From the IMG/VR virus record IMGVR_UViG_2541047936_000004: a stretch of DNA of 21,784 nucleotides; one strand, 5' to 3'. Below the pieces are notes generated by a model, which did not search any database, was not told where the DNA came from, and was given only the letters and a program-made list of their open reading frames with translations. A program made the translations under genes and the position numbers. Every line of letters starts with the position of its first letter. Position 1 is the first letter of the stretch. Positions 2,397 through 20,415 of the stretch are shown piece by piece. Origin of the DNA: a virus. Lineage: Duplodnaviria; Heunggongvirae; Uroviricota; Caudoviricetes.

Positions 2397-3518
2397 TTAG
2401 TCATCAACCGCGACTCCTGCACAATCATGGGCTATTGCCAGCAATTGTTTTTTAATTGCTTTAGCATCTACCGTCATATCTACTGTAGCAAAATGGATCT
2501 TATGTCCCTGAGTGACAACATACTCATTAAGCATATAGCCAACAGCTGGATGAAGTAGAAGACCAGCGGCATTGAGCGAAAGCGGATCCGTCTTGTTCTC
2601 CTGTGTTCTAAGGTAGGTATATAGCTGATAAATATAGCCATTACGTAGTGATTGCTCCCGATGCCAACCCTTTGTCAGAATCGAATTAAATTTGGTATCG
2701 ATAATAATACGCCGCTGGGCAGTCTTGTGTTCCAGAATAATGTCTGACTTCATTGTCGGGAAAATCTCTGCACTACCTGCACTTTGATCGCTCAACGCCC
2801 ATTTCAGCTCTTTCCCTGCAGAGACCTGCCAAGTTGTTTTGGCAAGGTGTACACGATATAAGCCAGCGATACCTTTTTCAAATAGTCTTCTCATCCAGTA
2901 AAGGTTATTTGAGGGCGCAGGTAAAAGATATTGGCCTTGATCTTCGGTCGGCATCAGCAGTTCAAAAGCTAATCGTGCGGCATCGACCATCGGTTTATCT
3001 GCGGCATCATGGCGTCCAAAACGCCACACTGAGGGTAATTCGCGGGGGGCAGGATATCCTCCATTTATCCCCTCACGGCGAAGTGATATTGCCATAAAAT
3101 GGCAATCTGCCGCCAAAGACGGTTTCACTATGATTGAGGCCAGACGTTCTAACGCACAGCGAACATAGCGATTTCGGGGGGTGTTGAGGGTTATGTCTTG
3201 AAAATGGCAGGCAACCTGTCCCCGTTCCAGCAGTTGATGACTGGCAGTATACAGTATGTCAATGCGCCCTCTCACCCGGTTCAGGGCCGCATGACAAGTT
3301 TGGTATCCCATATTTAAATTGCGACGTCGGCGCAGCGTAATCTCATGAAGGAGGATTGTCGCCACCAGGTCGGGGATTTCTGCTGGGTTATCTTCTACTG
3401 CGATCTGATTGCGCCCTAACTGGCGAAACAGATCTGAAGCGTACAGCATCAGCATCCAGATATTTCGCATGGGAATACGTGATGCTGTATGTTGCTCACT
3501 CCCGGTTATTGTCGTCAT
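2397..3518 (-). CDS. mcrC: McrC-family nuclease subunit of a McrBC-type (Type IV) restriction system
   Basis: 373-aa ORF colinear with K-12 McrC: MRNIWMLMLYAS vs VRNIYYMLTYA near the N-terminus, RIIIDTKF vs ILIVDAKYY (PD-D/ExK-type core), YIYQLYTYL vs LYQLMNYL, GLLLHPAV vs GLLIYPHV. Its ATG overlaps the mcrB stop (ATGA). Confidence 0.85.
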   Translation of the reverse strand: MTTITGSEQHTASRIPMRNIWMLMLYASDLFRQLGRNQIAVEDNPAEIPDLVATILLHEITLRRRRNLNMGYQTCHAALNRVRGRIDILYTASHQLLERGQVACHFQDITLNTPRNRYVRCALERLASIIVKPSLAADCHFMAISLRREGINGGYPAPRELPSVWRFGRHDAADKPMVDAARLAFELLMPTEDQGQYLLPAPSNNLYWMRRLFEKGIAGLYRVHLAKTTWQVSAGKELKWALSDQSAGSAEIFPTMKSDIILEHKTAQRRIIIDTKFNSILTKGWHREQSLRNGYIYQLYTYLRTQENKTDPLSLNAAGLLLHPAVGYMLNEYVVTQGHKIHFATVDMTVDAKAIKKQLLAIAHDCAGVAVDD

Positions 3519-5497
3519 TTTGCTAATAACACTTTTCTGGCTTCATCGACTTTATTTGGAGCATCGAACCAATATTCGGCGAGCAAAGGGCAGATCTCTG
3601 TATCAACGACTTGTTCATACCAAGCCTGGGCATCGTTGATTTTTTGGCCGATAGCTGGGGTGACATAGCTGTGACCGATACAAAACTGTGGTCCTAAGGT
3701 AACATCTTTTGCCAGCATATCGTTTAATACCGTCAGTCGAGATTTGATGAATGCTAACATGTCAAAATCAATTGCGTAATTATAATTTACCCAGTTTCTC
3801 CACGCGTCATTAAAAGCTGGCTTTAGATCGATAAACGCGAAACGACGGCGCAGCGCTAGGTCAAGTAGTGCGAGTGAGCGGTCTGCAATATTCATCGTAC
3901 CGATGATATATAGATTCTCAGGAATGTATATTTTTTCATCAGCATTTTTAGGATAGGAAAGAGATAATGCCTCAGTCGGCGTGCGTTTATCTGCTTCCAT
4001 CAACGTGAGTGTTTCACCGAAGATTTGCGCCGGATTGCCACGATTAATCTCTTCAATTATCACCACATATTTCGAGGTAGGATTATTGACTGCAGTTTTG
4101 ATTGCATTTACAAAAGGTCCATCAATTAGCGTCAATTGCCCTTCTTTACCTGGACGCCAGCCTCGAATAAAGTCTTCGTAAGAGAGGTTCGGGTGAAATT
4201 GCACCGCGCTAATACGCTCAGGTGCTTTTTCTCCCATCAAGCAGTACGCCAGACGTCGCGCTAACCAAGTTTTTCCAGTTCCGGGTGGTCCTTGTAATAT
4301 CAGGTTTTTCTTGTCGATCAGGCGCTGAAGTGTGAGTTGGATCTTAGCCTCTTCCAAGAAACAGCCATCCTGCACCAGATGACTGATGTCATAAGGAACG
4401 TGGGTGAGTTTTGGCAACAGCGCACTCTCTTCGACAGTTTCCTCAGTTATCGTCTGGGATTCGTTTTTCTCAAAATTCAGGTATTCATAATTTCCGGACT
4501 CGAGGGACTTTAACTCATCATCATTGCATAGTTTCTGTAGATAAAAGTAGATTGAGCTTGTAACAGTTTTGCTCTCAGGATGCTCTACCTTGAATACGTC
4601 CAAGTAGTTTTCTTCCAACTCCGAAGCAGTGAAATAAGGGCCATTTTTTTTCAGGCATAACGCCTTAATTTTATTCAGTAAAGAGGCTTTCCACGTTCTA
4701 TTTGCCACCTCATCTTTAGACTGGCTAAGATCTGTATTCCACGCTGATAAGGAAAGTTCTGGGAAAGAATGAACCGGATAGTTTGGTTGGGTAAAGACCT
4801 CGTTCAGCGCCCGCATAAGACTCAGGTAACTTTGTCCACTACAGCGACCTTTTGCCCCGTTTTTAATGATCTTAATGTTTAACACTGTCTGAATGTAATA
4901 CTGCGACTGGCTATCTAAAGTGGGGTAGAACCAAGGACGGGTCCAGTACAACCCCATGGTGAGATTCCAACCGACATTCATTACTGTAGAAGCGATGTCA
5001 TATGCGGCAGTGAAGTCTGCAGAGTTAGTATTCTGGTTATCCGCAAAGATCATTGCCTGTGAGAACATTTCCCACAAGCATTCAATGTCATTAGGGTCGC
5101 GTGACTTTTCATAACCAAAGAACCAAGATTTTTGGTTATTCAACAGAGGGATTCCGGCAAAGGAGTCAGGAATCGGTTCGTTCACGCCCAACAAATTCGC
5201 TAGCTTGGCAGCAATAATTTTGCGATTGCTGTCGGTCAAGTTACGATTGAACAAGCCCATAGTAGTAAACGGACAAATGTCTTTTAAGGGAAAGATCTCT
5301 CCCATAATAGATTTGTCCTGCAGATGGGACATTCCTTCCACACCCGAGGCAATTAGATGAATACCTTTGACTAATTCATCTCTACGATTTCGCCAAGTCA
5401 GTAACGCGTTGGCAAAAGCCTCATAAAAACTAGCCCAAGCAAACTTGCCATCATGTTCTGCTGTATCCACGGGAACTCCATTATACTTGTTGAGCAA
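3515..5497 (-). CDS. mcrB: McrB-family GTPase (AAA+) with a long N-terminal region of unknown type
   Basis: 660-aa ORF with a TTG start. Residues ~390-660 align with K-12 McrB: NLILQGPPGTGKTWLARRLAY, VQFHPNLSYEDFIRGWRP, MNIADRSLALLDLALRRRFAFIDL, IGHSY, PLLAEYWFD. The first ~385 residues do not resemble the K-12 McrB N-terminal domain as I recall it. Confidence 0.85.
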   Translation of the reverse strand: MLNKYNGVPVDTAEHDGKFAWASFYEAFANALLTWRNRRDELVKGIHLIASGVEGMSHLQDKSIMGEIFPLKDICPFTTMGLFNRNLTDSNRKIIAAKLANLLGVNEPIPDSFAGIPLLNNQKSWFFGYEKSRDPNDIECLWEMFSQAMIFADNQNTNSADFTAAYDIASTVMNVGWNLTMGLYWTRPWFYPTLDSQSQYYIQTVLNIKIIKNGAKGRCSGQSYLSLMRALNEVFTQPNYPVHSFPELSLSAWNTDLSQSKDEVANRTWKASLLNKIKALCLKKNGPYFTASELEENYLDVFKVEHPESKTVTSSIYFYLQKLCNDDELKSLESGNYEYLNFEKNESQTITEETVEESALLPKLTHVPYDISHLVQDGCFLEEAKIQLTLQRLIDKKNLILQGPPGTGKTWLARRLAYCLMGEKAPERISAVQFHPNLSYEDFIRGWRPGKEGQLTLIDGPFVNAIKTAVNNPTSKYVVIIEEINRGNPAQIFGETLTLMEADKRTPTEALSLSYPKNADEKIYIPENLYIIGTMNIADRSLALLDLALRRRFAFIDLKPAFNDAWRNWVNYNYAIDFDMLAFIKSRLTVLNDMLAKDVTLGPQFCIGHSYVTPAIGQKINDAQAWYEQVVDTEICPLLAEYWFDAPNKVDEARKVLLAK

Positions 5498-6415: not shown

Positions 6416-9264
6416 TATGCAAGCCTCACAATGTAGTTAAATGCGATGTTTTTGACGGTGTTTTCCGCGTTACCAGCAGCGTTAACGGTGATGGTGTGTC
6501 CATGTGAGCCAATCGCAACGGAGTGCGTATGAGCACCAATACCGACAGTATGTGCATGTGCGCCTGCGCTTGCAGCAGTGCCGGACAGCGAGTGGGTATG
6601 AGCACCATCTGATGATGTCTTCCCTGCATTACGAGTCTGGCCACTACCGCTTGTTGTGCTCATAATCCCCGCGCTTAGATTTGAAATCGCGGTATAACCA
6701 TTAGGGAAAATGCTCGTGTTCGTGCCACCAAATGCACCGGAACTCTTGTGTTGGTGCGCACCGGCACTATTTGCGGTCCCGCTAATACTATGGGTATGCG
6801 CCCCGGTGTTATTCGTGGATTTGGTTCCGTAATCAAACGACGATGTGGTTTTCGTCCCCAAATCCGTACTGGATGCGCTGGCGCTGTGGGTGTGCGATTT
6901 AATGCCGTCCTGTTCCTGAGACAATACGGCCCGACCACTGGCAGGTTTGCCCTTAATCGTCCAGCCACGCATATCAGGGATCACGCCTGACGGATAAGCG
7001 GCTGCAAGTTTCGGGTAAGCAGATTTGTCAAAAGTCTGCCCCTGCATCAGGGCATAACCAGACGGAACGGTATCTGATGGCCACGGGATTGGTGCGCCGA
7101 CTGGGTAGCTTTCTGGTGGAAGATTTTTCGAGGTATAAACTTCTGCCCAGCCTTCCTCAAAACCATAACCGTCTCTTGAAGAACGGTAGAACAGACCACC
7201 ATTTCTGTAATGCGCCTTCATCTGCAGGGTCCGGCAACTTCCGACTCCGGTATAGAAGTTAACCAGAATATAGCTGTCGCCAGAGCGGGTGACATTGTAA
7301 GCGCCTGATTCGGCATTCCAGGGAACGCCACCATCCGCATCGGCATATGTATCCGTTGCCCTTCTGGCAAAAGCAGCCACATGCGCGGCGGTTAAAGTAA
7401 TATCTTTGGAACCATCAAATGGAACACCGGATATTTTTCTTGCAGTCTGGAGTTTTGTAGCAGTTGCAGCATTACCAGTGGTGTTCTGATTACCCGTAGT
7501 GTTTACACCTGGAAGGTTAATATTTGCAGAACCGTCGAAAACAACTCCACCGATAGATCTTGCCGTCTGCAATTTCGTGGCTGTACTTGCATTACCATTC
7601 AATGAACCAGTTAATCCACCTGTAACAGACAACGGACCTGAAACTGTTCCTCCGGTTGTTGGCAGTGCTCCAATATCTGATGGTGTAGGTTTCTGATGTG
7701 AGCTATACATCGTATAAACAACACCATAGGTAACGCTGGAAGGCTTACTCGCTGAATATGTTGGCGAGGTATAAACAGAAACTGACGCATTTGCAGTACA
7801 ATCCCAATGGATATTTACACTCGTCGCATAATTGCCAATCTCAACGTAAATATCATATGTATCGCCGGATGTGTTGATCCAGGCGAAATTCGTTAATCCG
7901 ACGGCTGTACGCTTCCACAAAGCCCCGGTAATTCCTTTGGGGTTTCCATTGCCTGCTCGTAGAACCAGTTCTGAAATGCCTGCCTGATGTGGGGAACCGA
8001 CGTTGTAACCAGCGCCACCAATCAATGCGATGTAAACGATGGAACTCGCTTGTGGCATGGTAACCGTAGCCAGTTTGAACCACCCAGCCCCGCCAGAGAA
8101 AGACATCGTTACTGAATTTAAAGTACCAATATCTTTCGGCGTTAATGTTATATCCGCAGTCAGTGCTTTTCCGTTAACTTTTCGGTTAGATGGCACCCTG
8201 CTATTCGCATTGTCATTGGCTGCTTTAACTGCTTTTGGCGTTGCGGCCAGCGATTCACTGGTGCTATCAACAGCACTGCTAAGTTTCACAACACCTTTAG
8301 TTGTAAGGCTTGCGTCTTCCATCGCAACTGCACCGGCAATCTCTTCAGCACGATCAGCAGCAGCTTCCGCACGGGTCGCAGCGGATTCAGCAGTAGTTTT
8401 GCTCTGAGATGCCGCCGTCGCACTGCCAGCTGCCTCTGTCGCCTTCGTGGATGCTGTCGTGGCGCTGCCTTTCGCTGCTGATGCCTGTCTGCTCGCCTCA
8501 TCTTTTGAAGCAGACGCAGATGATGCCGATGACGCCGCCGAACTGGCGGACGATGCAGCTGCCATTTTTGAGGATTCTGCACTGGTTTCCGAGGCTTTCG
8601 CGTTCGTTTCGGATGTCTTCGCTGCGGATGCAGACCTCGCTGCTGCGCTGGCCTGTTCAGCGGCTTCGCCAGCCTTCGTTGTGGCTGTTGAAGCAGACGA
8701 TGCGGCGCTTTCTGCCGATTTTCCGGCGGCGGTGGCACTGGCTGAGGCCTGCCCGGCACTTGTTGACGCGGCACTGGCAGACGACGCAGCCGCTGTTTTT
8801 GAGCCTGCCGCAGCCGAGGCGCTCTGTCCCGCTGCCGTTTCAGAAGACCTGGCGTTTGTCTCAGACGTCTTTGCCGCCTTCGCGGAATTGCCTGCCGCCG
8901 TTGCCGAGGAAGCGGCACTACTGGCGCTTGATGATGCGTTCGTTTCTGATGATTTCGCTGCCTCTTTTGAGGCCGCCGCATCCCGGGCTGAGGTGGCTGC
9001 TTCTGACGCCTTCGTGGTCGCGGCGGATGCAGAAGTGGCTGCTGATTGTTGTGACGCTGCCGCATTCGTTTCTGACGTTTTCGCCGCACCGGCACTGGTA
9101 GCTGCCGCGCTTTTTGAGGACTCTGCAGCAGCACTTTTTGCTGCTTCACGGGCCTTTGTCGATGCCGTTCCTGCGCTGGAAGACGCTGACTGAGCCGACG
9201 ACGCGGCCTGTCCGGCTGACGTGCTGGCGGCACGTGCTGAGCCTGCAGCATCGGTTATTACCAC
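6415..9264 (-). CDS. stf: Side tail fibre protein (lambda Stf-like), N-terminally truncated
   Basis: 949-aa ORF. The Ala/Ser-rich periodic region (KTSETNA repeats), the middle [35 protein letters not shown] block and the His-rich C-terminus (GAHTHS...[31 protein letters not shown]) match lambda Stf. Homology begins at the position corresponding to about residue 145 of lambda Stf, and the upstream sequence is J-derived, so the first ATG is internal. Confidence 0.8.
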
Positions 9265-9282
9265 TTCCCGGATCGCTATACG

Positions 9283-10114
9283 CTATTCCGTTAAAGATAA
9301 TGGGCGGAATAATGATTTGACGGTCAAAGTTATGATCATCGCTGATGGTGACTGTAACCGTCCCGTTTGGTGTTTCCGTATTACCCCACGTACCAGCCTG
9401 TTTCGGGAATGATTTGGATACAGCTTTAACGAAGTCACCTCTGACCTGAGTCGCCTCCAGCATGCCCTTAATCGTACAGTTTTCATTTACCGTGACATTG
9501 TTGAGCGTCCCGGCGTTCGCATTCACACTGCCACTGATATCCGCATTTTTAGCGGTCAGCTTTCCGTCCGGTGTCAGGGAAAATGCCGGTGGATTTCCAC
9601 CGCTGGTAATGGTGGGGGCCGTCAGGCGTTTCAGGAACACGTCGTTCATGAATATCTGATCGCCCTGACCAACAAACATCGGTTTTGTGTTGCCATTCGC
9701 AGGATTAACCATCGCAATCCTGTCCGCCGCCAGCAGCACCTGACTCTGCATGCCGTCAGGGGTGTTCTCAATATCCACGATGGCCTCTTTTTCCGGTACA
9801 TGCTGCACGGCGGTGATGGCATACGTGCCGTCGTCGTTCTCACGGATACTCACGCAGCGGAACAGGCGCTGGCGCAACGTCGGCAGCTTCAGCCCCCATA
9901 CGCTGTATTCAGCAACGCCGTCAGGAACACGGCTCACTTTCACCTTCACGCCGTCGGTGACGGACTGAACCTCCACGCTGACCGGACTCCCCTGCCCGTC
10001 AACCAGGCTTATCAGCGTGGTGCCGGAAGATGGCAGCGTGATTTCACGGTCGAGCGTCAGCGTCCGGGTCTGGCTGTTTACCGCCAGCACGCGCCCGCCG
10101 GTGCGGATACCCAA
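9283..10114 (-). pseudogene. J: Remnant of tail tip/host-specificity protein J (C-terminal portion only)
   Basis: Minus-strand ORF contains lambda J C-terminal blocks ([102 protein letters not shown]). About 850 N-terminal codons are absent; the 3' end runs out of frame into stf. Confidence 0.7.
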
Positions 10115-10332
10115 GCTGGAGTGGCGAACGTTTTACCCTTGCTGATGAGGTATTCACTGATTTCGCTGTACCACATGTGGCTGAGTGCATTCTGGGAAAG
10201 ACTGCGTCTCTCGCGCCACGGTTTAAGCACCATGCGAAAGCATTTGCCGTCCTCCAGATAAGGCTGGATCTGCCGACCGATAGCGGTGAAGTTACCGCGA
10301 TGCAATTTGATACCATCTTGTGGGAGGTTCAC
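10115..10332 (-). pseudogene. N-terminal fragment of a NinB/Orf-like recombination protein, truncated at the junction with the J remnant
   Basis: GTG start with a GGAGGT Shine-Dalgarno sequence. The motif WRERRSLSQNALSHMW resembles the lambda NinB block ERNRSLDQNRKLWACL at a similar distance from the N-terminus. The reading frame then runs into J-derived sequence; the exact junction is unresolved. Confidence 0.3.
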
Positions 10333-10880
10333 GCTTCACCTCCGCAGAGATCAAACGCTGGATGCAAAATATCGCAGGTGCATTTCTGCATCTGTGAATG
10401 GAGAAGAGAGGTTGGATTGTATGTGCGCATAAACGTCCCCGTTTAGCGCAGAAGTCACCGGAGTTGTTCAGGCCCCAATGGCATGATTATGGCTGGTTGA
10501 TTATTGGAAATCAAATGTGCTGAAAATTAGTCTGCCAAGTCTTCCTCAGTCGCAACTGGGTAATTCCAAATATCAAAAAAAGCTATAGCCTCCTGCCATT
10601 TGCTCCATAAGTTATCAAGTACTTGTGTAGGTTCCGTACTTTTAAAAACAGAATCAGCCGCATCACCGTTATGAACTTCCTCGTACAGTTCCATTATTAG
10701 CAGATTAACAAAGTACTGTTTCAACATTAATGCCTGATTACCTTCTTTCTGCTGGCTATCCTGCTTGATGATCTCCATCGCCCGTACTAGGCACCTGATG
10801 ATATCCGCTGCATCATTAACGCTCCATGAACCGCCCCGGGAATCCTGGAGACTAAACTTCCTGAGAAAGAGGTAAACAGG

Positions 10881-11207
10881 ATGACTAAAAATACTCGTTT
10901 TTCCCCCGAAGTCCGTCAACGGGCAGTCCGTATGGTTCTGGAAAGTCAGGATGAATATGACTCACAGTGGGCGGCAATTTGTTCCATTGCCCCAAAGATT
11001 GGCTGTACGCCGGAGACTCTGCGTGTCTGGGTTCGCCAGCATGAGCGGGATACCGGGGGCGGTGATGGTGGGCTCACCAGCGCTGAACGTCAGCGTCTGA
11101 AAGAGCTGGAACGTGAAAATCGTGAACTGCGCCGCAGTAACGATATCCTTCGCCAGGCTTCCGCTTATTTTGCGAAGGCGGAGTTCGACCGCCTCTGGAA
11201 AAAATGA
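10881..11207 (+). CDS. IS629 OrfA (helix-turn-helix transposase N-terminal part)
   Basis: 108-aa ORF inside the IS; ends in an A-rich slippery region overlapping the orfB start. Confidence 0.85.
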
Positions 11208-12094
11208 TGCCACTGCTGGATAAGCTGCGTGAGCAGTACGGGGTCGGACCGGTATGCAGCGAACTGCATATTGCCCCGTCAACGTATTACCATTGTCAGC
11301 AACAGCGACATCATCCGGATAAACGCAGTGCCCGTGCGCAGCACGATGACTGGCTGAAGAGAGAGATACAGCGCGTATACGATGAAAATCATCAGGTGTA
11401 CGGTGTGCGTAAAGTCTGGCGTCAGTTGTTACGGGAAGGAATCAGGGTGGCCAGATGTACAGTGGCGCGCCTCATGGCGGTTATGGGACTTGCCGGTGTT
11501 CTCCGGGGTAAAAAGGTCCGTACGACCATCAGCCGGAAAGCCGTTGCCGCAGGCGACCGCGTAAACCGTCAGTTCGTGGCAGAACGACCTGACCAGCTGT
11601 GGGTGGCTGATTTTACTTACGTCAGCACATGGCGGGGCTTCGTCTATGTGGCGTTCATCATTGATGTGTTTGCCGGATACATCGTGGGGTGGCGGGTCTC
11701 ATCGTCCATGGAAACGACATTCGTGCTGGATGCACTGGAGCAGGCGTTATGGGCCCGTCGACCGTCCGGCACGGTCCATCACAGTGATAAAGGTTCTCAG
11801 TATGTATCGCTGGCCTACACACAGCGGCTTAAGGAAGCCGGATTACTGGCATCAACAGGAAGTACAGGCGACTCGTATGACAACGCGATGGCGGAGAGCA
11901 TCAATGGTCTTTACAAAGCGGAGGTAATACACCGTAAGAGCTGGAAAAACCGTGCAGAAGTGGAACTGGCCACACTCACGTGGGTGGACTGGTATAACAA
12001 TCGACGATTGCTGGAAAGGCTGGGCCATACTCCTCCGGCAGAAGCAGAAAAAGCTTATTATGCTTCCATCGGAAACGATGATCTGGCAGCCTGA
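11204..12094 (+). CDS. IS629 OrfB (DDE transposase catalytic part)
   Basis: 296-aa ORF in the -1 frame relative to orfA with an integrase-core-like sequence (HSDKGSQY...DNAMAES); identical copy at 19058-19948 on the minus strand. Confidence 0.85.
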
Positions 12095-12523
12095 GTTCAC
12101 AGATAAAACACTCTCCAGGAAACCCGGGGCGGTTCACCATTCAGATCCGCGCTTATCTTTAGCTGATGAATTGGCTCTCTCAGCGCAAGCCTTTAAAGAC
12201 TCATAAAGGTAAACTCTATTTTGTAGCTGCAGCGCTTTTTTTGACGTGTACCAACTTGCAAGCGCCGACCCCGCTGCGGCTAATGTGCCAAACGCAGAAA
12301 TACCTGCTGCTATTGCACTTAAGTCGGCACTGTCAAAGTTCCACATCATCGTTACACCTTATATAAATACCCCTCAGTAATATCCAATAAGGTATGTGCA
12401 CAATCAATATAATTTTATCCGTATCGGCACATAGCGATTTGAACGCTACTGGTAATGGTATATTTTAGATTATATCGTCCAGTTTACAGCACCCGTATTT
12501 TATGAAATGGACTCGCATATTAC

Positions 12524-12563
12524 CCAAAAAATGCCAGCACTTCCGTCATCGTAGAATGCTGGC
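12524..12563 (-). terminator. Probable rho-independent terminator downstream of the 99-aa ORF and recombinase
   Basis: Hairpin gccagcac(ttc)...(gaa)tgctggc at 12533-12563 (7-bp perfect stem, extendable to ~10 bp with one bulge), followed on the minus strand by a T6 run (plus-strand aaaaaa at 12525-12530). Confidence 0.45.
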
Positions 12564-12607
12564 AGTATTTCTAACTAGTGACTTTATTGGAACAGATTCT
12601 GACGGAA

Positions 12608-17088: not shown

Positions 17089-17243
17089 CGCATCCTCACG
17101 ATAATATCCGGGTAGGCGCGATCACTTTCGTCTACTCCATTACAAAGCGAGGCTGGGTATTTCCCGGCCTTTCTGTTATCAGAAATCCACTGAAAGCACA
17201 GCGGCTGGCTGAGAAGATAAATAACAAACAGGAGGATATATGA
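17085..17243 (+). CDS. Possible 52-codon small ORF translationally coupled between exo and the DGQHR gene
   Basis: Its ATG overlaps the exo stop (ATGA), its TGA overlaps the DGQHR ATG (ATGA), there are no internal stops, and GGGGAG lies 8 nt upstream. Product [52 protein letters not shown]. Below the track's length threshold. Confidence 0.3.
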
Positions 17244-18304
17244 GTCAGGTTGGTAATCATTCATTCGAATTTCCGGCATCGCAAGGTGTACAGGGTGGTA
17301 CTGTTACACTCTTCCTTACCATACCAGGAAGATCGCTGGCTCGTTTCCTCGCTTCAGATAATTACGGCCATACACTGGAACGCTCTCAGCGAGAAATTAA
17401 TCCAAATCGAGTACGAAAATTTTTAAATTATCTCACTAACGCAGACTCAAGAAATGAGCCTTTTATCATTCCCCCTCTCGTAGGTAACTGTGATTCGAAT
17501 ATAGAATTTGTACCGTTTGGCAACACAAATGTTGGTATAGCCAGAATTCCCCTCGACGCCGAAATAAAACTTTTTGATGGTCAACATCGTGCAGCTGGCA
17601 TTGAGATATTTTGCCGAAGTTCCCCATCAACGCTCATGGTTCCCATGATGCTTACAATGAATCTGCCGCTAAAAACCCGGCAGCAGTTCTTTTCGGACAT
17701 AAATAACAACGTTTCTAAGCCATCAGCGACCATCAATATGGCGTATAACGGCCGGGATGATATTGCTCAGGGAATGATATCCTTCCTGACCCAACATACT
17801 GTATTTGCCGATATAACCGATTTTGAACACAACGTAGTGCCATTAAAAAGTAATATGTGGGTGAGTTTCAAGGCACTCACTGATGCAACGTCAAAGTTCG
17901 CTAGGAACGGCAATCAACAACTTGAAATGGGATATATAGAATCTGTCTGGGAGGCATGGATTACACTAACTCAGATTGACTCAATCCGACATGGTGTACA
18001 CCACGCTACGTACAAGCGCGATTATATTCAGTTCCATGGAGTAATGATTAACGCTTTCGGTTTTGCGGTTCAACAGATGATGGTTAATCATTCCATCGCA
18101 GAAATAACTTCTATGATCGAAAAACTATGTGCAACTACCAGCTCTGCAGAAAGAGAGGATTTTTTTCTGATGGATAACTGGGCGGGGATCTGCACGAAAG
18201 CCAGCCAGGAAAAACTATCTGTTATTGCCAATGTGGCAGCGCAGAAAGCAGCAGCAAACAGACTGATACAAGCTTTTACCAAAGGAAGTCTGGAAACAAC
18301 TTAA
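17240..18304 (+). CDS. DGQHR-domain protein (DndB-like), solitary
   Basis: 354-aa ORF with a strong ribosome-binding site (CAGGAGGA-N5-ATG). It contains the exact motif FDGQHRAAGIE at residues ~112-122 and a downstream QQFFSDINNN block, consistent with the DGQHR/DndB family as I recall it. No dndACDE-like genes are nearby. Confidence 0.7.
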   Translation: MSQVGNHSFEFPASQGVQGGTVTLFLTIPGRSLARFLASDNYGHTLERSQREINPNRVRKFLNYLTNADSRNEPFIIPPLVGNCDSNIEFVPFGNTNVGIARIPLDAEIKLFDGQHRAAGIEIFCRSSPSTLMVPMMLTMNLPLKTRQQFFSDINNNVSKPSATINMAYNGRDDIAQGMISFLTQHTVFADITDFEHNVVPLKSNMWVSFKALTDATSKFARNGNQQLEMGYIESVWEAWITLTQIDSIRHGVHHATYKRDYIQFHGVMINAFGFAVQQMMVNHSIAEITSMIEKLCATTSSAEREDFFLMDNWAGICTKASQEKLSVIANVAAQKAAANRLIQAFTKGSLETT

Positions 18305-18963: not shown

Positions 18964-19057
18964 AAAAATTGATAAATTCAATACTGCATTACTCAGCATT
19001 AAATTTATCTCTATGTGAACCGCCCCGGGTTTCCTGGAGAGTGTTTTATCTGTGAAC

Positions 19058-19948
19058 TCAGGCTGCCAGATCATCGTTTCCGATGGAAGCATAATAAGCT
19101 TTTTCTGCTTCTGCCGGAGGAGTATGGCCCAGCCTTTCCAGCAATCGTCGATTGTTATACCAGTCCACCCACGTGAGTGTGGCCAGTTCCACTTCTGCAC
19201 GGTTTTTCCAGCTCTTACGGTGTATTACCTCCGCTTTGTAAAGACCATTGATGCTCTCCGCCATCGCGTTGTCATACGAGTCGCCTGTACTTCCTGTTGA
19301 TGCCAGTAATCCGGCTTCCTTAAGCCGCTGTGTGTAGGCCAGCGATACATACTGAGAACCTTTATCACTGTGATGGACCGTGCCGGACGGTCGACGGGCC
19401 CATAACGCCTGCTCCAGTGCATCCAGCACGAATGTCGTTTCCATGGACGATGAGACCCGCCACCCCACGATGTATCCGGCAAACACATCAATGATGAACG
19501 CCACATAGACGAAGCCCCGCCATGTGCTGACGTAAGTAAAATCAGCCACCCACAGCTGGTCAGGTCGTTCTGCCACGAACTGACGGTTTACGCGGTCGCC
19601 TGCGGCAACGGCTTTCCGGCTGATGGTCGTACGGACCTTTTTACCCCGGAGAACACCGGCAAGTCCCATAACCGCCATGAGGCGCGCCACTGTACATCTG
19701 GCCACCCTGATTCCTTCCCGTAACAACTGACGCCAGACTTTACGCACACCGTACACCTGATGATTTTCATCGTATACGCGCTGTATCTCTCTCTTCAGCC
19801 AGTCATCGTGCTGCGCACGGGCACTGCGTTTATCCGGATGATGTCGCTGTTGCTGACAATGGTAATACGTTGACGGGGCAATATGCAGTTCGCTGCATAC
19901 CGGTCCGACCCCGTACTGCTCACGCAGCTTATCCAGCAGTGGCATCAT
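19058..19948 (-). CDS. IS629 OrfB transposase (copy 2)
   Basis: Protein identical to 11204-12094. Confidence 0.85.
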
Positions 19949-20271
19949 TTTTTCCAGAGGCGGTCGAACTCCGCCTTCGCAAAATAAGCGGAAGCCTGGC
20001 GAAGGATATCGTTACTGCGGCGCAGTTCACGATTTTCACGTTCCAGCTCTTTCAGACGCTGACGTTCAGCGCTGGTGAGCCCACCATCACCGCCCCCGGT
20101 ATCCCGCTCATGCTGGCGAACCCAGACACGCAGAGTCTCCGGCGTACAGCCAATCTTTGGGGCAATGGAACAAATTGCCGCCCACTGTGAGTCATATTCA
20201 TCCTGACTTTCCAGAACCATACGGACTGCCCGTTGACGGACTTCGGGGGAAAAACGAGTATTTTTAGTCAT
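19945..20271 (-). CDS. IS629 OrfA (copy 2)
   Basis: Protein identical to 10881-11207. Confidence 0.85.
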
Positions 20272-20415
20272 CCTGTTTACCTCTTTCTCAGGAAGTTTAG
20301 TCTCCAGGATTCCCGGGGCGGTTCACTGACCAGTCAAGAGATGTACCTGCCATGAGCTTAATATCATGTCAGATATATCGGTCACAAACTCCCTCAGCAG
20401 CTAAGAGGAGGACAA

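What the first reader, a model, noticed from the sequence alone, without database searches (positions are those of the whole stretch)
10527..12349. IS629 insertion with a CCA target duplication splits a gene for a ~169-aa membrane-anchored protein that can be reconstructed in frame
Removing the 1310-bp IS plus one CCA copy joins two minus-strand segments into one ORF: MMWNFDSADLSAIAAGISAFGTLAAAGSALASWYTSKKALQLQNRVYLYESLKACAERANSSAKDKRGSEW followed by SVNDAADIIRCLVRAMEIIKQDSQQKEGNQALMLKQYFVNLLIMELYEEVHNGDAADSVFKSTEPTQVLDNLWSKWQEAIAFFDIWNYPVATEEDLAD. The protein has a single N-terminal hydrophobic helix and an acidic C-terminal domain, lies in the late nin-like region, and is of unknown family. 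Small membrane proteins in this region of lambdoid phages are often exclusion or abortive-infection factors, so the IS may have inactivated such a function.
Basis: partly seen in the sequence, partly recalled or inferred. Interest (0 to 1): 0.45.

Follow-up and report, generated by a model that had tools for sequence, protein, structure and literature searches.

The report
IS629 insertion splits prophage membrane-protein gene
A common mobile element (IS629 type) has jumped into a small gene for a membrane-anchored protein in a decayed lambda-like prophage; the same gene is intact in about 3% of complete E. coli genomes, belongs to a catalogued phage family whose function nobody has tested, and the event itself is ordinary.

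Summary
A 1310-bp IS629-type element (10827-12136) is flanked by a CCA duplication. Removing it plus one CCA restores a 169-aa minus-strand ORF. The restored 1088-nt locus is 100% identical to E. coli ML35. The uninterrupted gene (WP_000990013.1) is present in 180 of 5426 complete E. coli genomes, including 55989 and O104:H4, and none of them has this junction. The protein is a full-length member of PHROG 1779 (function unknown). It has no Pfam, NCBIfam, PADLOC, PDB or fold match. The family is small: 35 clusters among 1.84 billion proteins, all so far in Enterobacteriaceae lambda-like prophages. Close relatives always lie in the early-right operon between the replication genes and ninB, which is the delayed-early nin region, not a late region. 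Predicted architecture: a short N-terminal stub, a conserved Ala/Ser/Gly-rich transmembrane helix, an acidic all-helical cytoplasmic domain and a conserved acidic C-terminal tail. A conserved promoter-like element upstream, and a terminator downstream in some relatives, suggest a self-transcribed cassette ("moron"). An exclusion or abortive-infection role is plausible but untested. The host prophage is already heavily deleted. This is an ordinary IS insertion in an uncharacterised accessory gene.

The parts
10827..12136 (+). IS629-type insertion sequence (IS3 family), 1310 bp
   Evidence: Length and ends were read from the sequence. It is 97.6% identical, with no gaps, to an O157:H7 copy that RefSeq labels IS1203. 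Copies 100% identical to it occur on many E. coli chromosomes and plasmids.
10827..10851 (+). Left terminal inverted repeat
   Evidence: TGAACCGCCCCGGGAATCCTGGAGA matches the reverse complement of the right end at 23 of 25 positions.
12112..12136 (+). Right terminal inverted repeat
10881..11207 (+). IS orfA (108 aa)
   Evidence: ORF listed. Pfam HTH_Tnp_1, E = 1.7e-12.
11204..12094 (+). IS orfB (296 aa, DDE transposase core)
   Evidence: ORF listed. Pfam rve E = 7.7e-28 and HTH_21.
11162..11278 (+). ALIL frameshift-stimulating pseudoknot at the orfA/orfB overlap
   Evidence: Rfam RF01497, 121.5 bits against a gathering score of 50.
10824..10826 (.). Target-site duplication CCA, left copy
12137..12139 (.). 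Target-site duplication CCA, right copy. On the minus strand it is codon W71 of the gene.
12137..12349 (-). 5' part of the split gene, codons 1-71: N-terminal stub, transmembrane helix and the start of the cytoplasmic helix. The IS end supplies an immediate TGA stop at 12134-12136.
   Evidence: The 71-aa ORF 12134..12349 is listed.
10527..10823 (-). 3' part of the split gene, codons 72-169 plus the TAA stop
   Evidence: Identical to the ML35 allele.
12355..12360 (-). Shine-Dalgarno-like AAGGTG, 5 nt before the ATG
   Evidence: Read. AGG is invariant in the upstream alignment and remains GG-rich in the other relatives.
12379..12407 (-). Conserved promoter-like element TTGATT-N17-GATATT. Several spacer bases are also conserved.
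   Evidence: Conserved in loci whose proteins are only 50-75% identical and whose synonymous sites are saturated. It matches the sigma-70 consensus at only 8 of 12 positions, so calling it a promoter is inference.
12526..12565 (-). Terminator-like hairpin plus T-run, downstream of the upstream P22AR-C gene
   Evidence: The stem CUGCCAGCAUUC/GAAGUGCUGGCA is followed by UUUUUU. The 81-nt region folds at -20.3 kcal/mol, but the z-score is only -1.6. The hairpin is conserved in phage PhiR26_1.
10486..10514 (-). Second conserved promoter-like element, TTGATT-N17-CATAAT, just after the stop codon. It belongs to the ylcH/ybcN module.
   Evidence: Found by the promoter scan on the ML35 locus. Conserved in 7 of 8 loci. 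This flank is present in about 2957 of 5426 E. coli genomes, whether or not they carry the gene.
10329..10430 (-). ylcH-like 33-codon ORF between the gene and the truncated ybcN
   Evidence: Annotated as a hypothetical protein in ML35, strain 3347558 and 55989.

Best explanation
SHOWN (about 0.95). An IS629-type element inserted by simple transposition between codons 71 and 72 of a 169-aa gene and made a 3-bp CCA duplication. The IS end supplies an immediate stop codon, so at most a 71-residue stub (transmembrane helix plus 38 residues) can be made. The 98-residue C-terminal part is cut off from its start codon. The event is recent: the flanks are 100% identical to intact alleles, and the two IS copies in the window are identical to each other. 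The gene is a member of PHROG 1779, a small Enterobacteriaceae family under purifying selection. Its close relatives always lie in lambda-like prophages, pointing the same way as the early-right operon, after the replication genes and just before ninB.

INFERRED (about 0.3-0.35 for the specific mechanism). The product is a single-pass inner-membrane protein. A roughly 10-residue N-terminal stub faces the periplasm. An Ala/Ser/Gly-rich transmembrane helix, whose small-residue pattern is the most conserved part of the protein, packs against another membrane helix, either its own copies or a host inner-membrane protein. An acidic all-helical cytoplasmic domain ends in a conserved T-D/E-E-D-L-x-D tail that docks a partner. 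The gene is a self-contained cassette with its own promoter-like element, and in some relatives its own terminator. It can therefore be made independently of the early operon. Its most likely job is to interfere at the inner membrane with a competing phage, by superinfection exclusion or abortive infection. In this window that function, if any, is lost. Because the prophage had already lost pR, O, Q, the lysis genes and the head genes, the insertion is probably a neutral step in prophage decay.
For: Insertion anatomy. Intact alleles: the ML35 locus is 100% identical over 1088 nt. 180 of 5426 complete E. coli genomes carry the uninterrupted gene. 55989 and O104:H4 carry an identical allele in a fuller prophage. 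48 IMG/VR viral contigs carry it, 41 of them with an intact ORF. Two isolated phages, PhiR26_1 and PhiR5_1, carry it. Family: PHROG 1779, E = 1e-102, full length. Rarity: 35 clusters at 50% identity among 1.84e9 proteins. Purifying selection: dN is 0.25-0.5 while dS is saturated. Position: conserved across loci. Topology: acidic residues before the hydrophobic segment and KK/R after it; a continuous helix 10-63 followed by a helical bundle in the AF2 models, core pLDDT 83-93. Transmembrane conservation: residues 11-33 have the lowest entropy of any region apart from the short C-terminal tail, ten columns are 84-100% small residues, and S32 is invariant. Tail: conserved in about two thirds of members. 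Cassette signals: an upstream element conserved across 50-75%-identical relatives; a terminator-like hairpin upstream in this lineage; a clear intrinsic terminator downstream in L069-L073. Hotspot: SNIPE/PD-lambda-1, emrE and ybcK occupy the same ren-ninB interval (PMC13190303).
Against: No homology to any known exclusion, abortive-infection or defence protein was found: PADLOC gave no hit, hhalign to lambda SieB gave probability 0.04% and to HK97 gp15 0.33%. No fold match was found. The gene points the same way as the early operon in every context seen. In distant relatives it is embedded in pL or pR operons with no room for a promoter, once overlapping the upstream gene at ATGA. That pattern fits a lytic-cycle early gene equally well. 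The promoter-like element matches the consensus at only 8 of 12 positions and was not reported by the scanner. A frameshifted and nonsense allele is very widespread, in at least 998 contigs, so lysogens often do without the protein. Membrane topology was not predicted with a dedicated tool, and the AF2 confidence for residues 1-29 is low.
Confidence: 0.35

Rival explanations
1. The protein is a delayed-early lytic-cycle accessory protein, not a lysogen-expressed one. It is transcribed from pR or pL under N antitermination. From the membrane it acts on the host during infection, for example by sequestering or inhibiting a host protein (takeover, anti-defence, protease or division inhibition) or by tethering replication or recombination complexes. 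In a dead prophage the IS insertion has no consequence.
For: The gene always points the same way as the early operon and is tightly packed in it. Distant members lie in the pL operon just after N, or directly after (in one case overlapping) a DNA pol III theta homologue, among exonuclease, methylase and xis/int genes. In this lineage a terminator-like hairpin lies upstream, as expected for a gene that needs antitermination. The gene is frequently pseudogenised in resident prophages.
Against: A sequence element conserved across saturated divergence lies immediately upstream and resembles a promoter. Some relatives have their own terminator. No similarity to any known takeover or anti-defence protein was found.
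Confidence: 0.3
2. The protein is membrane-active. The Ala/Ser/Gly-rich helix oligomerises into a pore, or leaves the membrane as SAR domains do. The protein would then act as a holin/antiholin-like timer or as a membrane-depolarising toxin. Its cost would explain the repeated inactivation by IS insertion, frameshift and nonsense mutation.
For: The transmembrane helix is dominated by small residues and is only weakly hydrophobic (Kyte-Doolittle 1.6 in this allele), a composition like SAR and pinholin segments (established knowledge). Independent inactivating lesions exist: the IS here, and a frameshift plus stop in the allele seen in L012.
Against: The gene is not in the lysis cassette, which lies downstream of Q, more than 2 kb away. 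The charge distribution predicts N-out/C-in, the opposite of SAR endolysins and the T4 RI antiholin. There is only one hydrophobic segment. The intact allele is stably carried in 180 complete genomes and in viable phages. Gene decay is expected anyway in defective prophages.
Confidence: 0.1
3. The reconstructed ORF is not a real gene, and the in-frame joining is a coincidence of an open frame in non-coding prophage DNA.
For: No function is known and no domain matches. The RefSeq locus tag in 55989 has a much higher number than its neighbours, which may mean it was added after the original annotation; that reading is my inference.
Against: The ORF matches PHROG 1779 at full length. Homologues down to about 20-25% identity keep the same length and the same motifs. 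dN is far below the saturated dS. A Shine-Dalgarno-like sequence is conserved. The AF2 core is predicted with confidence.
Confidence: 0.02

Closest known systems
IS629 / IS1203 / IS3411 isoform group (IS3 family)
   Same: 1310 bp. Terminal inverted repeats starting TGAACCGCCCCGGG. OrfA (HTH_Tnp_1) and orfB (rve) overlap, with an ALIL pseudoknot at the overlap. 3-bp target duplication. 97.6% identical to an O157:H7 copy labelled IS1203.
   Different: 32 substitutions separate it from that O157 copy. RefSeq labels the copies identical to this one only as 'IS3 family transposase'. Which isoform name applies could not be settled without ISfinder.
PHROG 1779 (phage protein family, function unknown); RefSeq WP_000990013.1 'hypothetical protein'
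   Same: The reconstructed protein matches the profile over all 169 positions at E = 1e-102. It is identical to WP_000990013.1 of ML35 and 55989.
   Different: In this window the gene is split by the IS. No complete E. coli genome in the collection has this allele.
HK97 gp15 (moron-encoded superinfection exclusion protein)
   Same: It works alike in architecture only. Both are small lambda-like-phage accessory proteins with an N-terminal transmembrane helix and a helical cytoplasmic part. gp15 is annotated as a moron with its own terminator, and this gene has comparable signals.
   Different: No sequence relationship (hhalign probability 0.33%). gp15 has 62 aa against 169 aa here. gp15 sits in the tail-gene region, not the nin region. 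No exclusion phenotype has been tested for this family.
Lambda/P22 SieB (Pfam PF14163)
   Same: Both are membrane proteins encoded in the early region of lambda-like phages. Distant members of this family sit just after N, where lambda has sieB.
   Different: No Pfam hit in any of 31 members. hhalign probability 0.04%. sieB is transcribed opposite to pL in lambda, whereas this gene always points with its operon.
SNIPE / PD-lambda-1 (DUF4041 + GIY-YIG membrane-bound nuclease)
   Same: It occupies the same ren-ninB cargo interval in phage PhiR26_1 and in strain 3347558. It has an N-terminal membrane anchor with its working domains in the cytoplasm (PMC13190303), which is the topology predicted here.
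   Different: It is unrelated in sequence and size (about 500 aa, with a nuclease domain), lies on the opposite strand, and is absent from this window and from ML35. The 169-aa protein has no nuclease or other catalytic motif.

Membership tests
IS629-type element (IS3 family) | About 1.3-kb element bounded by imperfect terminal inverted repeats | tested here: met
   1310 bp; the 25-nt ends match at 23 of 25 positions.
IS629-type element (IS3 family) | Overlapping orfA (HTH) and orfB (DDE/rve) with a programmed -1 frameshift signal | tested here: met
   ORFs 10881-11207 and 11204-12094. HTH_Tnp_1 and rve domains. ALIL pseudoknot at 121.5 bits.
IS629-type element (IS3 family) | 3-bp direct target duplication | tested here: met
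   CCA at 10824-10826 and 12137-12139. Removing one copy restores a sequence 100% identical to ML35.
IS629-type element (IS3 family) | At least 95% nucleotide identity to a named reference copy | tested here: inconclusive
   97.6% identity to a RefSeq O157:H7 copy labelled IS1203. No ISfinder reference was available to choose between the names IS629, IS1203 and IS3411.
PHROG 1779 | Significant full-length match to the family profile | tested here: met
   E = 1.2e-102, residues 1-169 on profile positions 1-169.
SieB superinfection exclusion (PF14163) | Sequence or profile similarity to SieB | tested here: not met
   No Pfam hit for the protein or for 31 relatives. hhalign to lambda SieB gives probability 0.04%.
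HK97 gp15-type exclusion moron | Homology to gp15 | tested here: not met
   hhalign probability 0.33%.
HK97 gp15-type exclusion moron | Own promoter and terminator (moron architecture) | tested here: inconclusive
   The conserved upstream element is promoter-like but matches the consensus at only 8 of 12 positions. A downstream terminator is present only in L069-L073. No transcript data are available.
HK97 gp15-type exclusion moron | Blocks infection by other phages when expressed | not testable with these tools
   This needs plating assays.
Known anti-phage defence systems (PADLOC-DB 2.0) | Match to any defence protein model | tested here: not met
   No family at E <= 1.
Holin / pinholin / SAR-domain lysis proteins | Located in the lysis cassette downstream of Q | tested here: not met
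   The gene lies upstream of ninB, and the holin and lysozyme genes are several genes further on.
Holin / pinholin / SAR-domain lysis proteins | Weakly hydrophobic Gly/Ala/Ser-rich transmembrane segment | tested here: met
   Ten of the transmembrane columns are 84-100% small residues, and the Kyte-Doolittle score is 1.6. This is a resemblance only.
HEPN (weak Foldseek hits to HepT toxins) | Conserved Rx4-6H motif | tested here: not met
   No conserved His anywhere in the family alignment. The Foldseek hits have E >= 1 and TM-scores of about 0.3.

The most novel reading that the evidence does not exclude
PHROG 1779 is a previously unrecognised single-gene, membrane-anchored phage-exclusion or abortive-infection module. 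It has its own regulated promoter and sits in the ren-ninB cargo hotspot of lambda-like prophages. It would work through a conserved small-residue transmembrane helix that engages a host inner-membrane protein used for DNA entry, and through an acidic cytoplasmic domain and tail that bind a phage or host partner. The IS629 insertion here would then be a natural knockout.
Probability: 0.2. Interest if true: 0.5.

Novelty: new member of a known kind. Interest (0 to 1): 0.25.

Why it matters
As it stands, very little. IS629-type insertions into prophage genes are routine in E. coli, and this one lies in a prophage that is already heavily deleted. The value is a by-product. The finding points to a compact, well-defined orphan family: 169 aa, one conserved small-residue transmembrane helix, an all-helical acidic cytoplasmic domain, a conserved acidic C-terminal tail, and a conserved regulatory-looking element upstream. 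The family sits in an interval where a defence gene (SNIPE/PD-lambda-1) was recently characterised. Intact alleles are available in standard strains (ML35, 55989, O104:H4) and in isolated phages (PhiR26_1, PhiR5_1), so its function could be tested cheaply. This window supplies a natural null allele for comparison.

Tried and rejected
(1) Pfam, NCBIfam and PADLOC scans of the reconstructed protein, and a Pfam scan of 31 relatives, gave nothing above noise.

(2) A profile search against PDB sequences gave only E > 5.

(4) Homology to lambda SieB and to HK97 gp15 was rejected by hhalign.

(5) I tested whether the conserved upstream element is an RNA hairpin. RNAalifold gave only -5.5 kcal/mol with a covariation term of -0.3, so this is unsupported.

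(6) The perfect TATAAT at 12469-12474 that I first took for the promoter is not conserved outside close alleles, so I dropped it.

(7) Literature and supplement searches for the accessions, the PHROG identifier and the phage names found nothing. The Brenes & Laub 2025 paper on prophage defence systems is not held.

(8) The source strain could not be identified.

The 98%-identical P0001 was used instead.
Full report
OBSERVATION. Window 10827-12136 is a 1310-bp element. Its 25-nt ends are inverted repeats that match at 23 of 25 positions (TGAACCGCCCCGGG...). It carries an orfA of 108 aa (HTH_Tnp_1) and an overlapping orfB of 296 aa (rve, the DDE core). An ALIL frameshift pseudoknot spans the overlap (Rfam RF01497, 121.5 bits). 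The element is 97.6% identical, with no gaps, to an O157:H7 copy that RefSeq names IS1203. It is 100% identical to copies on many E. coli chromosomes and plasmids. "IS629" is therefore right at the level of the IS629/IS1203/IS3411 isoform group. I could not settle the exact isoform name.

CCA flanks the element on both sides, at 10824-10826 and 12137-12139. Deleting the IS and one CCA gives a 510-nt minus-strand ORF.

The reconstruction is not a chance frame. The restored 1088-nt locus is 100% identical to E. coli ML35, where the ORF is WP_000990013.1. The uninterrupted gene is present in 180 of 5426 complete E. coli genomes, including 55989 and the O104:H4 outbreak lineage. It is also in 48 IMG/VR viral contigs, 41 of which have an intact ORF. 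Two isolated phages, PhiR26_1 and PhiR5_1, carry it. No complete genome in the collection has this IS junction.

CONTEXT. The window is a DLP12-like defective lambda-like prophage. Read on the minus strand it runs as follows:
- integrase (20642 onward, plus strand);
- a second IS629 copy;
- a DndB-like gene and a YqaJ exonuclease;
- replication protein P, ren, emrE and the serine recombinase ybcK;
- a P22AR-C fragment;
- the split gene;
- a 33-codon ylcH-like ORF;
- a ybcN (ninB homologue) truncated after about 84 codons and fused to tail fragments;
- a tail fibre gene, a tail fibre assembly gene and an McrBC-like pair.

pR, cro, cI, O, Q, the lysis genes and the head genes are all absent. E. 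coli 55989 has the same segment inside a much fuller prophage, with cI, cro, ydaT, O, P, ren, emrE, ybcK, P22AR-C, the gene, ylcH, ybcN, ninE, ybcO, rusA, ylcG, quuD, a porin gene and the lysis genes. The gene therefore lies at the start of the delayed-early nin region, not in a late region.

THE PROTEIN FAMILY. The protein matches PHROG 1779 (function unknown) over its full length at E = 1e-102. Pfam, NCBIfam and PADLOC give nothing. A word-indexed search of 5.8 billion proteins found 15 clusters. An exhaustive profile search of 1.84 billion representatives found only 35, nearly all 150-180 aa. A scan of species-representative genomes found it only in Scandinavium, Enterobacter and Phytobacter. 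Named proteins come from Escherichia, E. albertii and Pantoea. Among diverged members dN is 0.25-0.5 while dS is saturated, so the ORF is under purifying selection.

The family alignment shows five features:
- a short N-terminal stub, consensus M-x-W...W;
- a hydrophobic Ala/Ser/Gly-rich segment that ends in an invariant Ser (S32);
- a basic juxtamembrane stretch containing a near-invariant Gln (Q43 of the QLQ in the close relatives);
- conserved R-A-N, W71, A-N-I, K-x-Y-F-x-x-x-L, P-D and W-x5-F-F positions;
- in about two thirds of members, a C-terminal T/S-D-x-D-L-x-D tail.
No conserved His, Cys or acidic cluster suggests catalysis.

The transmembrane segment has the lowest column entropy of any region apart from the short tail. 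Ten of its columns are 84-100% small residues. That is unusual for a plain membrane anchor and points to specific helix-helix packing. Acidic residues precede the segment and Lys/Arg follow it, which predicts N-out/C-in by the positive-inside rule. Residues 71-169 carry a net charge of -11, and the whole protein has pI 4.6.

GENOMIC POSITION AND EXPRESSION SIGNALS. In every close relative examined, the gene points the same way as the early-right operon. It lies downstream of O/P or a DnaB-type helicase and a variable set of small ORFs, with no conserved neighbour. It lies immediately upstream of NinB, or of DUF1367 in one case.

More distant members (18-30% identity) sit in the pL operon just after N. 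Others sit next to a DNA pol III theta homologue, once with overlapping stop and start codons. One sits in a pR operon beside a pyocin-like gene.

Upstream of the nin-region members there is a conserved element, TTG(A/C)(T/C)(T/A)-N17-GATATTA, with several conserved spacer positions. It persists between loci whose proteins are only 50-75% identical. In the window it is at 12379-12407 on the minus strand, followed by AAGGTG and the ATG. It matches the sigma-70 consensus at only 8 of 12 positions, and the scanner did not report it. Calling it a promoter is therefore inference from conservation. An RNA-hairpin reading got little support. The two most divergent nin-region loci, L010 and L011, instead carry TGnTATAAT plus a short GC hairpin before the ATG.

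In this lineage a terminator-like hairpin with a T-run lies between the upstream P22AR-C gene and the element. In L069-L073 a clean intrinsic terminator follows the gene. In the window and most E. coli alleles, the gene is followed instead by a second conserved promoter-like element, TTGATT-N17-CATAAT. That element belongs to the widespread ylcH/ybcN module. Together these signals resemble a self-contained, self-transcribed cassette (a moron), but they do not prove one.

WHAT THE INSERTION DOES. The IS sits between codons 71 and 72. Read on the gene's strand, the IS end begins TGA, so translation stops right after W71. That leaves the stub, the transmembrane helix and 38 cytoplasmic residues. 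The 98-residue C-terminal part has no start codon of its own; a 130-codon hybrid ORF that starts at a TTG inside the IS is only a mechanical ORF.

The flanks are identical to intact alleles, and the two IS copies in the window are identical to each other. The event is therefore recent.

Other lineages have inactivated the gene independently. A frameshift in the transmembrane region plus a stop at codon 50 gives the 83-84-aa fragment annotated in at least 998 contigs.

MECHANISM. Shown: the simple insertion, the null or truncated allele, family membership, the conserved position and purifying selection.

Inferred, at about 0.3-0.35: a single-pass inner-membrane protein whose conserved small-residue helix packs against another membrane helix, and whose acidic cytoplasmic domain and tail bind a partner. 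It would be expressed from its own promoter and would act against competing phage at the membrane.

The main rival, at about 0.3, is a delayed-early lytic accessory protein for host takeover, anti-defence or a replication-associated role. This rival is favoured by the strict co-orientation with the early operon and by the operon-embedded distant members. A pore- or SAR-like membrane-active role, at about 0.1, is suggested only by the helix composition; the position and the predicted topology argue against it.

The ren-ninB interval is a cargo site. It holds emrE and ybcK here, and SNIPE/PD-lambda-1 in PhiR26_1 and strain 3347558. SNIPE was recently shown to be an inner-membrane-anchored nuclease with cytoplasmic domains (PMC13190303).

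VERDICT. This is an ordinary, recent IS629-type insertion into a catalogued but uncharacterised prophage accessory gene, inside a prophage that was already defective. The gene family is a reasonable, cheap target for functional testing, and that is the only reason the score is above the floor.

Noticed in passing
window 19016-20325: A second IS629-type copy is 100% identical to the first and in inverted orientation. Its flanks are ATG and CTG, so it has no matching 3-bp duplication. This suggests an IS-associated deletion or rearrangement between the DndB-like gene and the integrase. The two inverted copies bracket about 6.9 kb (ybcK, emrE, ren, P, exo, the DndB-like gene) and could mediate inversion.
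   Followed up: partly
window 12379-12407 (minus strand); also L003, L004, L005, L007, L012, L069-L073: The element TTGnnn-N17-GATATTA upstream of the gene, including spacer positions (A....CC.T.TT), is conserved between loci whose coding regions have saturated synonymous divergence. It is more conserved than a plain promoter needs to be, so it may also hold an operator. An RNA hairpin was tested and found weak.
   Followed up: partly
window 10486-10514 (minus strand): The promoter-like element TTGATT-N17-CATAAT lies directly after the gene's stop codon and upstream of the ylcH-like ORF and ybcN. It is conserved in 7 of 8 diverged loci. It is part of a flank present in about 2957 of 5426 E. 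coli genomes.
   Followed up: partly
L012-L016 and protein cluster P0020/P0070: A decayed allele of the same gene is widespread. It has a frameshifted transmembrane region and a stop at codon 50, and is annotated as an 83-84-aa C-terminal fragment in at least 998 contigs.
   Followed up: yes
window about 10078-10332 and 9146-10114: The ybcN (ninB homologue) ORF is truncated after about 84 codons and runs straight into tail-tip and tail-fibre fragments. The whole of Q, the lysis genes and the head genes has therefore been deleted. The same junction is present in ML35.
   Followed up: partly
window 2397-5497: An McrC-like gene (373 aa) and a 660-aa AAA_5 McrB-family gene lie next to the tail fibre assembly gene. 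ML35 has an extra IS3-family element inserted just before its McrB-family gene, with a partial hypothetical ORF beside it; the window lacks that insertion and reads one 660-aa ORF there.
   Followed up: no
window 17240-18304: A solitary DndB-like gene (PF14072, E = 4e-46) lies in the early-left part of the prophage remnant, next to a YqaJ exonuclease gene. It may be defence-related cargo.
   Followed up: no
L017, L018, L024-L026: Distant family members lie directly downstream of a phage-encoded DNA pol III theta homologue, seen with two different family proteins (P0052 in Pantoea, P0047). In Pantoea the two genes overlap at ATGA. This could be a functional link or inherited gene order.
   Followed up: no
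L010 and L011, about 45 nt upstream of the gene: In the most divergent nin-region relatives, the upstream element is replaced by TGnTATAAT followed by a CCCCTC...GAGGGG hairpin. The 3' arm of the hairpin overlaps the ribosome-binding site, so it could be a translational or termination control.
   Followed up: no
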